From: Candidatus Spongiisociaceae bacterium
GTDB taxonomy: Bacteria > Actinomycetota > Acidimicrobiia > Spongiisociales > Spongiisociaceae
Assembly (NCBI GenBank): GCA_965202665.1
Contig: OZ241841.1
Coordinates: forward strand, 224,001 to 288,000
Reading direction: 5' to 3'
DNA length: 64,000 nucleotides
The position numbers and the translations under genes are program-made. Below are positions 4,590-9,367 of the stretch, in pieces. Every line of letters begins with the position of its first letter. Positions within the stretch are counted from its first letter, which is position 1. The notes below the pieces were generated by a model. The model ran no database searches. It was not told the origin of the DNA and saw only the letters and a list, made by a program, of their open reading frames with translations.

Positions 4590-6974
4590 ATGACAATGCG
4601 CGCGACTCCATACCGGAGAATATTCCAACTGCTATTGGCGATAGGATTGGCCGGTTCGGTCGCCATCCAACCTTCTACCGCTTCGGCGCAGGGCATTCCC
4701 GACCTTGACCGGGCAGGTTGTTCCAACGGCTCCTTCCTCGCCTTCTCAACGAACCCTGCGGACGAACCGGCCTTGGTAGCGGATTGCCAAACGTTGGTGT
4801 CCATCCGCAATCATTGGACGCGCCACCCCGGCAACGCCGGCCTGCCCGCCGACCACCCTCTGCGAACTTGGGGATCCGGCGACACCGTCACCATCGATTC
4901 CTGGGAAGGCATCACCGTCGGCGTCTATCCCCACGAAGACCGCAACCTCCCCTGGCGCGTAAAGGAAATATCATTATATAACCGGTCGATCTCCGGCACT
5001 CTGCCCAAAGAAATAGGTAATCTTACCGCGCTTACTTCTATATGGCTCGACCGGAATTCACTAAGCGGCCCTATTCCCCAAGAAATAGGCAATCTAACCA
5101 ACCTCACCTTTTTGGGGTTGGCGCATAATGAATTATCCGGAACCATTCCTTCTACTATTGGCAACCTCACGGAAATAGAGATCCTCTGGCTAGGCAACAA
5201 CGACCTAACCGGTGCTATCCCCAACGAAATAGGAAACCTAAGCTATATTACTGATCTGCAACTATACCATAATCAGATAACAGGGAGAATACCTGATAGC
5301 ATAAGCCGACTTTCCAGACTGGTTGATCTACGTCTCTTCCCCAATAATTTCTCTTCCGCAGAATTACCTAGACAATTGCAAGAACGATATGAAAGATCTT
5401 TCGATTCTGATGAGCTGCGTCTTATTGCCAAAGCGGATGCTATCCGTAATCTCACTTTAGACAAAACGGAATGGGAAGTATGGATTTGCGATGTTGGCGG
5501 TCCTCTTAGATTAAATGTAGAAGATGTTACCCGATCCCTTAATAATAGAATAACGCCATATTTTGACTGGTTGTCAGAAGGAAAATATATTCCCACCTTT
5601 CTTGCCAAGGATACTGTGCAATCACCTAATAAGGATGACTGTGATGAGAAAATAGATGGTCCAGCTAGGGATAAATACAACAAGCAGGCTGTGGTTGTTG
5701 AGAACAGTGAACACGCAGGCGGATTTGTCGTCGGCCTCCCGGGTCAGCCCGGTGTCGCCGTGGTTGGCGGCGGATCCGTGACGGCTATTGCCGGTAATAC
5801 TCCATACACTCCTCGGTTTAGTACCGTCGCCCACGAAATGGGCCATCTCCTAGATTGGCCGCATAACTTTAGCGGGCTCGACTTTTGGCCTAGCGGCGCA
5901 ATATTTGAAGGCGGCAATCCTATGGATATTATGAGTTCCTCTTCAGATACAATGGATCTTGGGTCAGGTACTATTGCGATCAATCGTTACGCCTCCGGCT
6001 GGATAGATCCCGACGATGTTATAGTTCACCAAAACGGGGCCGCTACTTACCGCCTGAGCCCGGTGGGAGTATCCGGTAAGCAAATGCTGGTTATACCATC
6101 CAATGATGGAACAGGAGTTTTCTACACGCTTGGCGCCAGAGTCAAGAAAGGCTATGACCGGGGGAATCCCAAAGAGGGAGTGGAAGTCTATTTGATTGAC
6201 CAACGGCTTACGGCATGCGGGACCGGTGACAGCGTATGCTGGGGAACGGATCGCCGCGTCCAACCATTTCCCCCCACGCAAGTGGGTCATCGAACAAAAT
6301 TCACATATCATGTCCATGGCGCGGGAGATGTTTTCCGAGTAGGAGGGTTCCGGATAGAGGTCAAAGAAAGACTAGGAGATCGGTTTTCGGTGGTGGTCGG
6401 GGAAGGATGCGGGGGCCATTTTTCGGGACGGTTCTGCGACGAAGACGACACCACCCATGAGCGCAACATTGAACAAATAGCCGAATGGGAAATCACCCTC
6501 GGATGCGGCGGTGATCGTTTCTGCCCCGACCGTTCCATCACCCGCATCCAAATGGCCGCCTTCCTCTACCGGGCGTACCTCCGCCAAGCCGGAACCCCGC
6601 CCGCACCCGCCTCAGCTGCCCTGGTCGACGTGCCCGACGAGGCCTGGTACCGGCAGTTTGCGGAATGGGCGGTATCCTCCGGGGTGATGCGGGCCCCCGC
6701 CGGAATGTTTCATCCGAACGGCTTGGTAACCAGGGCGGATATGGCCGAAATGATGGTGGCGACGTTCGACAACCTGAGCCCGTCCGCGCCTCCGCCGCAA
6801 GGAATATTCACCGATATGAGGGACCTGAACGAAGACGTGATCCGCGCCGCGGAAGGACTGCGCGCCGCCGGGGTCACTCAAGGATGTTCCGCCTCGCCCC
6901 TCCGCTATTGTCCCGACCAGCCGGTCACCCGGGCGCAGATGGCCTCATTCTTCGTCCGAGCCATTAATACCTGA
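4590..6974 (+). CDS. Secreted surface protein: signal peptide, Cys-containing N-cap, ~5-6 24-aa LRRs, zinc metalloprotease (HEMGH, M6-like) and C-terminal SLH-type domains
   Basis: Signal peptide ending near ASA; LxxLxLxxNxLSGxIPxxIGNL repeats; TVAHEMGHLLDWPH...MDIMS; FCPDRSITRIQMAAFL and YCPDQPVTRAQMASFFVRA SLH motifs. Confidence 0.85.
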   Translation: MTMRATPYRRIFQLLLAIGLAGSVAIQPSTASAQGIPDLDRAGCSNGSFLAFSTNPADEPALVADCQTLVSIRNHWTRHPGNAGLPADHPLRTWGSGDTVTIDSWEGITVGVYPHEDRNLPWRVKEISLYNRSISGTLPKEIGNLTALTSIWLDRNSLSGPIPQEIGNLTNLTFLGLAHNELSGTIPSTIGNLTEIEILWLGNNDLTGAIPNEIGNLSYITDLQLYHNQITGRIPDSISRLSRLVDLRLFPNNFSSAELPRQLQERYERSFDSDELRLIAKADAIRNLTLDKTEWEVWICDVGGPLRLNVEDVTRSLNNRITPYFDWLSEGKYIPTFLAKDTVQSPNKDDCDEKIDGPARDKYNKQAVVVENSEHAGGFVVGLPGQPGVAVVGGGSVTAIAGNTPYTPRFSTVAHEMGHLLDWPHNFSGLDFWPSGAIFEGGNPMDIMSSSSDTMDLGSGTIAINRYASGWIDPDDVIVHQNGAATYRLSPVGVSGKQMLVIPSNDGTGVFYTLGARVKKGYDRGNPKEGVEVYLIDQRLTACGTGDSVCWGTDRRVQPFPPTQVGHRTKFTYHVHGAGDVFRVGGFRIEVKERLGDRFSVVVGEGCGGHFSGRFCDEDDTTHERNIEQIAEWEITLGCGGDRFCPDRSITRIQMAAFLYRAYLRQAGTPPAPASAALVDVPDEAWYRQFAEWAVSSGVMRAPAGMFHPNGLVTRADMAEMMVATFDNLSPSAPPPQGIFTDMRDLNEDVIRAAEGLRAAGVTQGCSASPLRYCPDQPVTRAQMASFFVRAINT

Positions 6975-6993
6975 CCGGCCAAAGGGAACCAAC

Positions 6994-7396: not shown

Positions 7397-9367
7397 ATGG
7401 GTAAATACCGCACGCTTCTCACGCTGGCCGTCGGCGCGGCCGGGTTGTTGGCGGCCCTGGTCATCCCGGCGGGGGCGCAGACAGACGGGGCCTTCCCCGT
7501 TCTGGACCCGGCCGGGTGCTCCGACGGCTCCTACGTAACCGACCCGGACGACAACCCGGGGTTGGCGGCGGACTGCCGGGCTTTGACGGCCATCCGCAAC
7601 CACTGGACCGGTCATCCCGGCAACGTCGGGTTGCCGGCCGACAACCCTTTGCTGACTTGGGGCGCGGGCGACACGGTCAACATCACTTCTTGGACCGGGG
7701 TGGAAATCCACCGGGGACGGGTGGGGGCCTTGGATTTGCGGGATGAAGAAATTGCCGGTTCGCTCCCGGCTGAATTGGGCGACCTGGAAAACCTGACCGT
7801 CCTCTACCTCAGTTTCAACCAGCTGACCGGGGAAGTACCCGCCGAGTTGGGCGGCCTGTCCAACCTCACCCGCCTCTACCTGGACGGAAACAACCTCACC
7901 GGCCCCATCCCGCCCCGACTGGGCGACTTGGACAACCTGACCCGCCTTTACCTGGACCGCAACCAACTCACCGGGAGCATCCCCGCCCAACTGGGCGAAC
8001 TGGACAACCTGACCCGTCTTTTCTTGGACAACAACCGGCTTAGCGGCTCCATCCCCGCCCAACTGGGCGACTTGGACAACCTGATTCTGATGTGGCTGCA
8101 CTCCAACCGGCTCACCGGTCCCATCCCGGAGGAATTGGGCCGGCTGGCCAAGGTCACGCACCTGTGGCTGGACGGCAACCAGCTGACCGGGCCCGTCCCG
8201 GAGGAGTTGGGACGGATGGACAACCTCCTTTACTTAGACTTGGAGGACAACCAACTGTCGGGCCCGATACCGCCCCAACTGGGCGAACTGGACAGCCTGG
8301 CCCGCCTCTACCTGAATCAGAACCAACTGTCGGGCGGCATCCCGACGGAACTGAGCCGCCTAGCCAACCTCACCCACCTTTACCTGGACCGCAACCAACT
8401 CACCGGCTCCATACCGCCCGAACTGGGCCGGCTGGCCAACCTGCAACAGCTGTCGCTGTACGGCAACCGGCTGACCGGCTCCATACCGCCCGAACTGGGC
8501 GGGCTGGCCAACCTGAACCACTTGGATTTGGACCAGAACCGGCTGACCGGGACCATTCCGCCCGAGCTGGGCAACCTGTCCCGCCTCACCGAACTGTGGT
8601 TGGATCGCAATCAACTGACCGGGACCATTCCGCCCGAGCTGGGCGACCTGTCCCGCCTCAACCGGCTGTTCCTGGGTTGCAACCAGTTGACGGGCCGCGT
8701 ACCTCCCGAACTGGGGAACATCAACTTCCTCAACTGGCTCAACCTGTATCCCAACCGGTTGACCGGAACCGCCCCGCCCGAACTGGGGGAACTGCTGTTC
8801 CTGCGGTTCTGGAACTTCGCGGGCCGCTTCTGCGACGACGAACAGAGCGTGCACGAACCCAACATTGAAACCACCGCCGGTTGGCGCATCACCCTGGGAT
8901 GCGAACCAAACCGGTTCTGCCCGAACAGTCCCATCACCCGCAACCAGATGGCGGCTTTCCTGCACCGGGCGGTCGTCCACCATTCCGGACCCCCCGCGCC
9001 AGCCGCCGCCGTCGACCTAAAGGACGTGCCGGACGGAGCCTGGTACCGGGAGTTCGCCGAATGGGCGGTGTCCGCCGGGGTGATGCGGGCCCCGGAGGGA
9101 ATGTTCGATCCGGGTACGGTGGTGTCGCGGGCCGACATGGCGGTGATGCTGACCGCCGCCTTCGAGCACTTGAACCCAACCGATCAGGTCCGGGGGCTGT
9201 TCAACGACATGTCCGGCCAGAGCGCCGAAGCCGTGCGGGCGGCGGAAGGGTTGCGCCTCGCCGGAGTAACCTCCGGTTGCTTCGTGTCCCCCCTGCGCTA
9301 CTGCCCCGACCGGCCGGTGACCAGGGCGCAGATGTCCTCCTTCTTGGTGCGGGCCATCGCCCCCTGA
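7397..9367 (+). CDS. Secreted LRR-SLH surface protein (~15 24-aa LRRs)
   Basis: Signal peptide (PAGA/Q); N-cap homologous to 4590..6974; ~15 LxxLxLxxNxLTGxIPxELGxL repeats; C-terminal SLH-type motifs (FCPNSPITRNQMAAFL, YCPDRPVTRAQMSSFLVRA). Confidence 0.9.
   Translation: MGKYRTLLTLAVGAAGLLAALVIPAGAQTDGAFPVLDPAGCSDGSYVTDPDDNPGLAADCRALTAIRNHWTGHPGNVGLPADNPLLTWGAGDTVNITSWTGVEIHRGRVGALDLRDEEIAGSLPAELGDLENLTVLYLSFNQLTGEVPAELGGLSNLTRLYLDGNNLTGPIPPRLGDLDNLTRLYLDRNQLTGSIPAQLGELDNLTRLFLDNNRLSGSIPAQLGDLDNLILMWLHSNRLTGPIPEELGRLAKVTHLWLDGNQLTGPVPEELGRMDNLLYLDLEDNQLSGPIPPQLGELDSLARLYLNQNQLSGGIPTELSRLANLTHLYLDRNQLTGSIPPELGRLANLQQLSLYGNRLTGSIPPELGGLANLNHLDLDQNRLTGTIPPELGNLSRLTELWLDRNQLTGTIPPELGDLSRLNRLFLGCNQLTGRVPPELGNINFLNWLNLYPNRLTGTAPPELGELLFLRFWNFAGRFCDDEQSVHEPNIETTAGWRITLGCEPNRFCPNSPITRNQMAAFLHRAVVHHSGPPAPAAAVDLKDVPDGAWYREFAEWAVSAGVMRAPEGMFDPGTVVSRADMAVMLTAAFEHLNPTDQVRGLFNDMSGQSAEAVRAAEGLRLAGVTSGCFVSPLRYCPDRPVTRAQMSSFLVRAIAP
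7720..8810 (+). repeat. 72-bp-period coding tandem repeat (LRR array)
   Basis: 24-codon periodicity; e.g. identical 30-mer cctttacctggaccgcaaccaactcaccgg at 7945-7974 and 8377-8406 (432 = 6x72 apart); boundaries approximate. Confidence 0.9.

What the first reader, a model, noticed from the sequence alone, without database searches (positions are those of the whole stretch)
4590..9367. Paired LRR-SLH proteins with constant ends and a low-GC swapped middle: a modular surface-display platform
Seen: both genes share a GC-rich N-cap (LDxAGCSxGS...ADC...IRNHWTxHPGNxGLPADxPLxTWGxGDTVxIxSWxG) and a GC-rich, closely similar C-terminal SLH block starting at FxGRFCD. In gene 1 the intervening ~4960-6400 is clearly AT-richer (hand count 21/60 GC at 5341-5400) and encodes ~5-6 LRRs plus an HExxH metalloprotease. 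Gene 2 has ~15 LRRs with host-like GC. Established: eukaryote-like LRR proteins are enriched in sponge symbionts, and SLH domains anchor proteins to the cell surface. Inference: foreign cargo domains are swapped in frame between conserved N-cap and SLH homology arms by recombination, giving a family of surface receptors or receptor-proteases. The locus sits between yraN and comM-dprA, the machinery that could drive such swaps.
Basis: partly seen in the sequence, partly recalled or inferred. Interest (0 to 1): 0.72.

Follow-up and report, generated by a model that had tools for sequence, protein, structure and literature searches.

The report
Modular LRR-protease surface proteins, sponge symbiont
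Two intact genes in a sponge-associated actinobacterium encode predicted cell-wall-anchored proteins with plant-receptor-like repeats, one fused to a predicted zinc protease; its AT-rich middle is real but old and fixed, and it is likely the ends, not the middle, that recombination keeps rewriting within a large mix-and-match surface-protein family.

Summary
Observation confirmed. Both genes share an N-cap (61% aa) and an SLH block (63%). Gene 1's middle (4959-6386) has GC3 0.45 against 0.74-0.76 in its ends (0 of 300 shuffles reach this); gene 2 is uniformly 0.84-0.85. The organism groups with Ca. Spongiisociaceae (Acidimicrobiia); the middle is 5-6 plant-type LRRs plus an M6-like metzincin.

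The swap story fails for this locus. The same middle is in 14 conspecific alleles, in contigs from 8 runs and in the sister species' syntenic ortholog, where the protease (75%) is better kept than the N-cap (55%) or SLH (67%). Domain trees of 21 homologs show no supported conflict. Protease-SLH is a native Acidimicrobiia unit; no low-GC donor was found. The comM neighbourhood is genus-specific.

The platform idea holds genome-wide: 17 of 49 SLH/LRR genes carry AT-rich distal modules, giant paralogs shuffle them, and SLH anchors switch cargo. This scan noted the giant-gene mosaic and a similar LRR-SLH gene earlier on other DNA. Verdict: new variant of a known kind.

The parts
4590..6974 (+). 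Gene 1, 794 aa: signal peptide, LRR N-cap, 5-6 plant-type LRRs, M6-like metzincin with C-terminal beta domain, three SLH motifs
4590..4700 (+). Predicted Sec signal peptide of gene 1 (hydrophobic helix, A-S-A/Q site); by inspection, no predictor run
   Evidence: sequence; helix 8-22 in the model
4701..4955 (+). N-cap of gene 1, GC3 0.76; with the LRRs it folds like SERK/BAK1 ectodomains; this elaborated cap found only in genera g1 and g4
4959..6386 (+). AT-rich middle of gene 1 (GC 0.48, GC3 0.45): LRR array plus protease; same boundaries in the sister-species ortholog
4956..5375 (+). LRR array of gene 1; ortholog in G001 has two repeats (48 aa) fewer and near-saturated silent sites
5406..6398 (+). 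M6-like metzincin (HExxH...H at residues 415-425, Met-turn-like PMDIM) with C-terminal beta domain
   Evidence: TIGR03296 below cut-off; Z 18.9 to InhA2, 275 aligned, rmsd 3.3
6424..6974 (+). SLH triplet of gene 1 (TRIQ, TRAD, TRAQ motifs), GC3 0.74; most polymorphic folded part within the species, with a replaced patch near residues 731-747 in some alleles
6994..7107 (+). Small membrane-peptide gene (37 aa), ancestral; also beside yraN in G003
7125..7325 (+). Small CxxC gene (66 aa), ancestral; also beside yraN in G003
7397..9367 (+). Gene 2, 656 aa: signal peptide, N-cap, 15 plant-type LRRs, three SLH motifs; host-like GC3; concave face conserved in the ortholog (59/70 vs 40/98 other variable positions)
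637..3158 (-). comM and dprA (context only; link to the pair not conserved)
9388..9717 (-). yraN-like nuclease gene (context only)
   Evidence: 63.1 bits, below the 109 cut-off

Best explanation
These are two ordinary, fixed members of a lineage-wide kit of predicted secreted, likely SLH-anchored surface proteins: gene 2 a conserved 15-repeat LRR that likely binds one host or neighbour ligand, gene 1 a predicted LRR-aimed M6-like zinc protease whose AT-rich middle predates the species split while its ends are likely being rewritten by recombination. Function (inferred): Sec export, SLH binding to a pyruvylated wall polymer, the LRR concave face holds a partner protein, and in gene 1 the metzincin next to it cuts that partner or nearby matrix at the cell surface. 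Evolution: protease-SLH is the old Acidimicrobiia unit (shown); an N-cap+LRR head was added in sponge-associated lineages and changes repeat number (shown). The multi-copy arms take up patches from the large host-like pool of homologous N-cap and SLH sequence (inferred from their excess divergence), which keeps them GC-rich; the low-copy or fast-diverging middle escapes this and sits nearer the AT-biased mutational equilibrium (inferred). The same process, with outright module swaps, is visible in the giant SLH paralogs elsewhere in the genome (shown).
For: Synteny with G001 across the whole locus, neighbours 75-89% aa. Gene 1 vs ortholog: protease 75%, N-cap 55%, SLH 67%, the arms no closer than to a non-syntenic paralog (57%, 67%), whereas gene 2's arms are 82%. 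SLH identity below protease identity in only 6 of 210 homolog pairs; 3 are gene 1's clade and the other 3 are ties within 0.01. Within species SLH 29/188 variable sites vs protease 28/344, p=0.012. Low-GC3 proteases are scattered among high-GC3 ones on the tree (quick tree); gap of 0.15 or more between SLH and protease GC3 in 11 of 21 LRR-bearing vs 3 of 51 LRR-less genes (kin not independent). GC3 equally low at conserved and variable residues, 0.44 vs 0.43. Minor alleles in the middle G/C-to-A/T 18, reverse 4. Giant paralogs: tips equilibrium GC3 0.34 (0.17-0.47) vs stalks 0.62 (0.57-0.67), the AT-to-GC rate three times lower in tips. CsaB-like pyruvyltransferase present. Recombining genes have higher GC3 in 11 of 14 bacterial groups (PMC4450053, passages).
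Against: No donor for the SLH patch is in G000 (best paralog 52-58%), and arms between paralogs are only about 75% identical at DNA level, low for efficient recombination. LRRs are themselves multi-copy yet AT-rich in gene 1. Whole N-cap+LRR modules exist at GC3 0.20-0.44 in G000 and G001, so the N-cap is not always protected, which fits import from an unseen low-GC relative equally well. Polarised counts are small (12 vs 8 in tips; 3 vs 3 with stricter settings), tip windows were defined by GC3, and the gene 1 count comes from 25 rows of a table showing 40 of 106, with no matched control. Silent divergence in the protease is higher (about 0.6 vs 0.21-0.34) than neighbours, compatible with an older, imported allele. 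No expression or activity data.
Confidence: 0.55

Rival explanations
1. One reading: the LRR+protease middle came once from a lower-GC relative and recombined in frame into a resident gene through the N-cap and SLH arms, before the two species split; it has been fixed since.
For: Sharp 5' step at the end of the N-cap, repeated in 11 of 39 N-caps in 4 genomes. Very low-GC3 versions of whole modules exist (0.20-0.44). Type ISP and DUF1156 methylase genes show the same high-low-high signature. Arm-bounded swaps are seen in giant paralogs, e.g. 486817/2590247: 93% module A, 61% module B, 92% stalk. A shared SLH origin of genes 1 and 2 is not rejected (AU p=0.146).
Against: No low-GC carrier found: flanks of the 80 best protease loci are 0.57-0.74 GC; the N-cap is in 5 of 29 family genomes and 0 of 400 class genomes searched; none in viral contigs. 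Low-GC3 copies do not form one clade, so many imports would be needed. 0 supported domain-tree conflicts in 21 full-length homologs.
Confidence: 0.27
2. No recombination is needed: host-facing domains under repeated sweeps or relaxed codon selection simply drift to AT in place, and the arms stay GC-rich by ordinary selection.
For: AT-biased minor alleles; giant tips have 96 non-silent vs 36 silent differences against 566 vs 616 in stalks.
Against: Gene 1's protease is well conserved in protein yet AT-rich even at invariant residues; steps are sharp and sit at domain borders; does not explain excess arm divergence.
Confidence: 0.13
3. An active switching locus: cargo is exchanged between the two genes or from silent cassettes on a population time scale, helped by the neighbouring yraN-comM-dprA genes.
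For: ComEC, ComM, DprA and a YraN-like gene are present; ComM/YraN extend transformation D-loops (PMC13663708, passages). One unresolved joint 4913-5053 in run X16.
Against: 14 alleles 95-100% identical end to end; single contigs cross both junctions in X7, X8, X10, X12, X13; no long identical repeats; all 18 N-caps and 4 proteases lie in long open frames; yraN and comM are within 1.1 kb in 18 of 20 relatives and have no LRR/SLH gene between them in 20 of 20.
Confidence: 0.04

Closest known systems
M6 metallopeptidases (immune inhibitor A / InhA2, PDB 4yu5; TIGR03296)
   Same: Predicted fold matches over 275 residues, Z 18.9, rmsd 3.3, next hit Z 9.3; 16 of 16 family members hit TIGR03296; HExxH and Met-turn-like motif.
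   Different: 14% identity; 39 bits vs cut-off 110.8; third zinc ligand is His (Asp in InhA, recalled) and the usual Gly is Asp in gene 1; carries an LRR head and an SLH anchor.
Plant LRR receptor ectodomains (SERK/BAK1, MIK2, FLS2, PGIP) and sponge-symbiont eukaryote-like LRR proteins
   Same: 24-residue LxxLxLxxNxLxGxIP repeat and N-cap; target TM-score up to 0.82 with SERK-type chains. LRR enrichment in sponge Acidimicrobiia is reported (PMC11706023, passages).
   Different: Bacterial, wall-anchored by SLH rather than membrane-spanning; that paper's main text has 0 mentions of SLH or S-layer; similar LRRs are common in other bacteria.
SLH-anchored surface proteins (Paenibacillus SpaA, Bacillus Sap)
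   Same: PF00395 over cut-off in both genes; TRAE-like arginine motifs (PMC6081394, passages); pyruvyltransferase in the genome.
   Different: Anchor is C-terminal with Cys pairs; 49 SLH ORFs in one 2.8-Mb actinobacterial genome.
Domain movement / target-recognition-domain exchange in restriction-modification genes (PMC3077401)
   Same: Variable module between conserved arms; the same GC3 signature marks Type ISP and DUF1156 genes in this genome; giant SLH paralogs reassort two tip modules.
   Different: For genes 1 and 2 no shared 27-37 bp repeats and no alternative alleles were seen; here the arms vary more than the middle.

Membership tests
M6 metallopeptidase (InhA-like) | Metzincin fold plus C-terminal beta domain as in InhA | tested here: met
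   Z 18.9, 275 aligned, rmsd 3.3 to 4yu5; model pLDDT 88
M6 metallopeptidase (InhA-like) | Curated profile score | tested here: not met
   TIGR03296 39.3 vs 110.8 bits; PF05547 hit by 1 of 16 members at E 0.04
M6 metallopeptidase (InhA-like) | HExxHxxGxxD zinc motif (recalled) | tested here: not met
   HExxHxxDxxH in gene 1; third ligand His nearly invariant in 67 homologs
M6 metallopeptidase (InhA-like) | Zinc-dependent proteolysis | not testable with these tools
   needs an assay
SLH-anchored protein | Three SLH motifs with the conserved Arg | tested here: met
   PF00395 43.8 and 41.0 bits vs 20.8; three TR/SR motifs per gene in the sequence
SLH-anchored protein | Wall-polymer pyruvyltransferase in the genome | tested here: met
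   PF04230 over cut-off at G000:539354-540184
SLH-anchored protein | Binding to the cell wall | not testable with these tools
   needs sacculus binding or localisation
Plant-type LRR ectodomain | 24-residue repeat and capping domain fold | tested here: met
Domain-movement cassette (TRD-like) | Near-identical flanking repeats | tested here: not met
   arms 75% nt, longest exact 10 and 19 nt between genes 1 and 2
Domain-movement cassette (TRD-like) | Unrelated middles at the same locus in different strains | tested here: not met
   14 alleles and 8 runs; contigs drop rare variants
Domain-movement cassette (TRD-like) | Reassorted modules among paralogs in the wider family | tested here: met
   giant SLH paralogs; SLH vs protease incongruence for L034/L036; not seen among 21 N-cap-LRR-protease-SLH proteins
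Silent-cassette antigenic variation or VLR-like assembly | Orphan donor cassettes | tested here: not met
   all 18 N-cap and 4 protease hits lie in long open frames
Diversity-generating retroelement | Reverse transcriptase in the genome | tested here: inconclusive
   no PF00078 match in G000, 94% complete

The most novel reading that the evidence does not exclude
Sponge-symbiont Acidimicrobiia run a genome-wide surface-specificity economy like that of restriction-enzyme recognition domains: a third of their SLH-anchored proteins carry AT-rich distal modules traded by natural transformation within a shared, lineage-wide pool, and gene 1 is a retargetable surface protease in which an exchangeable plant-type LRR head chooses the host substrate for a conserved M6-like blade.
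Probability: 0.3. Interest if true: 0.72.

Novelty: new variant of a known kind. Interest (0 to 1): 0.45.

Why it matters
Eukaryote-like LRR proteins of sponge symbionts are mostly known as domain counts. Here they come with an anchor, a conserved binding face (gene 2) and an enzyme (gene 1), which gives concrete baits for finding host targets. The unnamed M6-like protease family (232 representatives at E below 1e-30) is not covered by a curated model. The within-gene GC3 steps mark which surface modules are diversifying, and the locus is a clean test of whether AT-rich middles mean foreign origin or escape from GC-biased conversion. As a single locus, though, it is a stable, fairly ordinary member of its family.

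Tried and rejected
Assembly chimera: rejected, independent contigs cross both junctions and the ortholog has the same layout. Active switching, silent cassettes and a functional link to comM-dprA: see rivals. DGR: no RT found. Gene 1 relatives in JGI metagenome contigs: none confirmed among 87 pattern hits; protease in viral contigs: none among 8. No RNA holder listed, no evidence either way on expression. Read depth is per contig and could not test coverage drops at junctions. Sequence search of PDB with the protease profile gave only E 0.4-1. The first polarised substitution test, classed by variability, was uninformative (0.56 vs 0.63); the GC3-classed rerun is reported with its weak points. 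N-cap tree is mostly unresolved. The protease tree is the quick tree; the careful one was not finished. Promoter scan: 3 sites vs 1.6 expected, chance level. Literature: searches listed no paper describing this LRR-protease-SLH architecture or SLH-module shuffling in sponge Acidimicrobiia (listings only; subscription papers such as the 2023 description of these taxa are not held; supplements not read). One paper on AT-rich transferred genes was not held. No complex prediction was run, as no partner is known.
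Full report
1. What is there. The window lies in G000, a single 2.77-Mb contig of 64% GC. Gene 1 (4590-6974, 794 aa) and gene 2 (7397-9367, 656 aa) are intact. Both hit LRR and SLH families over their cut-offs. 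The best relatives of the protease carry record titles such as Ca. Spongiisociaceae: of the 80 loci kept from 210 confirmed, 66 are titled Acidimicrobiia or a group within it, 2 Actinomycetota, 12 just 'bacterium' (the search favours close kin). Runs labelled sponge metagenome from two studies hold the locus, and three of them were laid.

2. The N-caps are 61% and the SLH blocks 63% identical. The GC count is exact, and GC3 runs 0.76, 0.42, 0.46, 0.74 along gene 1 against 0.84-0.87 in gene 2. The low segment is 4959-6386 and 0 of 300 shuffles reach its score. Two corrections: the arms share only 75% of bases with at most 19 identical in a row, and two small ancestral genes, also found beside yraN in G003, separate the pair, so each gene was probably inserted on its own.

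3. The parts. The model of gene 1 is confident (pLDDT 89). N-cap plus LRRs match SERK/BAK1-type plant ectodomains, so the N-cap is the structural cap of the repeat array; all 18 copies in G000 precede LRRs, many deep inside giant proteins. This elaborated cap was found in 5 of 29 family genomes (genera g1 and g4, 9-19 copies) and 0 of 400 sampled class genomes. The middle enzyme folds like the M6 peptidase InhA2 (Z 18.9, 275 residues, rmsd 3.3) but scores below the family cut-off and has His as third zinc ligand. Among the top 120 homologs, all 105 with room for it carry SLH, 44 carry LRRs and 27 this N-cap; other heads listed are FN3, OpuAC or none. In the wider profile search 76 of 91 long enough representatives carry SLH. 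So protease-SLH is the old unit and the LRR head is the addition. A pyruvyltransferase needed for SLH anchoring is present (mechanism from PMC6081394, passages). Signal peptides are judged by eye.

4. Is the middle swapped? Not recently. The locus is syntenic in G001. Neighbours are 75-89% identical and gene 2 78%; gene 1 is 69%, with the same AT-rich middle, two LRRs fewer, and silent differences of 0.54 against 0.21-0.34. By domain: protease 75%, N-cap 55%, SLH 67%, while gene 2's arms are 82%. I aligned 14 of the 25 members of the conspecific cluster (15 listed, one fragment dropped, one identical to the window): 95-100% end to end. In 8 runs laid of 17 holders no other middle appeared; single contigs cross both junctions in five. 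One unresolved joint (4913-5053, run X16) remains, and contigs drop rare variants. Trees of N-cap, protease and SLH for 21 full-length homologs give 0 supported conflicts; gene 1 and its ortholog are sisters in the protease tree and in the larger SLH tree, though unresolved in the smaller SLH and N-cap trees.

5. The ends move more than the middle. SLH identity is below protease identity in 6 of 210 homolog pairs, three of them gene 1's clade and the rest ties. Within the species SLH has 29 of 188 variable sites and the protease 28 of 344 (p=0.012), including a replaced patch whose donor is not in G000. Gene 2 behaves like a stable receptor: same 15 repeats in G001, 59 of 70 concave-face positions identical against 40 of 98 other variable positions.

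6. The platform is real at genome scale. A high-low-high GC3 pattern occurs in 24 of 1079 genes of 300 aa or more from my simple gene caller; 17 are among the 49 SLH/LRR genes (p=2e-19), and at least three of the other seven are Type ISP or DUF1156 methylase genes (3 of 4 such genes scanned were identified). Ten giant SLH paralogs carry two AT-rich tip modules in reassorted pairs, e.g. 56% and 96%, 93% and 61%, 40% and 86% nucleotide identity; nearest partners also change along the gene in G001. Two proteases that are sisters have SLH anchors that cannot be held together (AU p=1.5e-7). The scan had noted the giant-gene mosaic before (e1-1114777) and a similar LRR-SLH gene in another genome (e1-1115508); I had found the mosaic before that look-up.

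7. Why AT-rich? No donor was found: flanks of the 80 protease loci are 0.57-0.74 GC, low-GC3 copies are scattered on the tree (72 rows, those without one full protease and one full SLH dropped), and the gap is tied to LRR-bearing genes (11 of 21 vs 3 of 51; kin are not independent). Minor alleles in gene 1's middle run 18 to 4 towards A/T (25 rows of a table cut to 40 of 106; one three-allele site left out; no matched control), and recent silent changes in giant tips point to equilibrium GC3 0.34 against 0.62 in stalks, on 20 tip events. This fits escape from GC-biased conversion (PMC4450053, passages). Against it: whole N-cap+LRR modules at GC3 0.20-0.44 exist in both species, LRRs are multi-copy yet AT-rich, and the step at the N-cap end recurs in 11 of 39 caps, all of which also fit old imports from an unsampled low-GC relative. 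I put these at 0.55 and 0.27.

8. comM-dprA. The transformation genes are present, with ComEC, and ComM/YraN act in trans on incoming DNA (PMC13663708, passages). But in 18 of 20 other family genomes yraN lies within 1.1 kb of comM, and none of the 20 has an LRR or SLH gene between them. The adjacency is an insertion in this genus and no sign of a dedicated machine, though transformation is a plausible route for the patches.

9. Verdict. Real anatomy, real GC step, wrong time scale and, for this gene, probably the wrong moving part. Shown: architecture, conservation, family-level shuffling. Inferred: export, anchoring, ligand binding, proteolysis, and the cause of the GC step. The LRR + M6-like + SLH architecture did not come up in the paper searches (listings, plus passages of PMC11706023 and PMC3077401). 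New variant of a known kind; interest 0.45.

Noticed in passing
G000:C1 479520-514294, 1013916-1035803, 2590247-2626501 (L151); G001 L132-L145: Giant Calx-beta/SLH proteins with two AT-rich N-terminal tip modules in shuffled combinations; tips have 96 non-silent vs 36 silent differences in close pairs.
   Followed up: yes
L152:244-5091, L154:258-5099, L153:3228-5969: Type ISP and DUF1156 methylase genes show the same GC-rich ends, AT-rich middle pattern; several copies of each lie close together.
   Followed up: partly
L148:3845-19337 and L168:3202-13386: A 3630-aa LRR/Calx-beta/SLH gene whose first 700 codons have GC3 0.2-0.3 in both species and only 38-50% identity, switching sharply to host-like GC3 and 56-74% identity; G000 has an extra 1537-aa low-GC gene upstream.
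   Followed up: partly
G000:C1 1141275-1172495, 1652233-1676484, 2390196-2428400: Open frames of 10,406, 8,083 and 12,734 codons ending in SLH; two hold four N-cap+LRR blocks each.
   Followed up: no
L146:7339-9060; L025:12325-14259: Protease-SLH paralog that has lost the HExxH motif in both species and has host-like GC3: a likely inactive binding protein.
   Followed up: no
L011:5350-8611: G001 has about 2.8 kb extra between ech and gene 1: two DnaJ-like frames, a small SLH-like protein and an alpha/beta hydrolase (by inspection).
   Followed up: no
window:3282-3749: Lone vsr (very short patch repair endonuclease) directly upstream of comM, with no methylase beside it.
   Followed up: no
window:4565-4590: ech and gene 1 start back to back only 24 bases apart, so their promoters must overlap coding sequence.
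   Followed up: no
window:4913-5053: One contig in run X16 matches both sides but not this stretch, which covers the N-cap/LRR junction; content unknown.
   Followed up: no
L117 (G033): yraN and comM are 11 kb apart in this genome; no LRR or SLH hit, content not examined.
   Followed up: no
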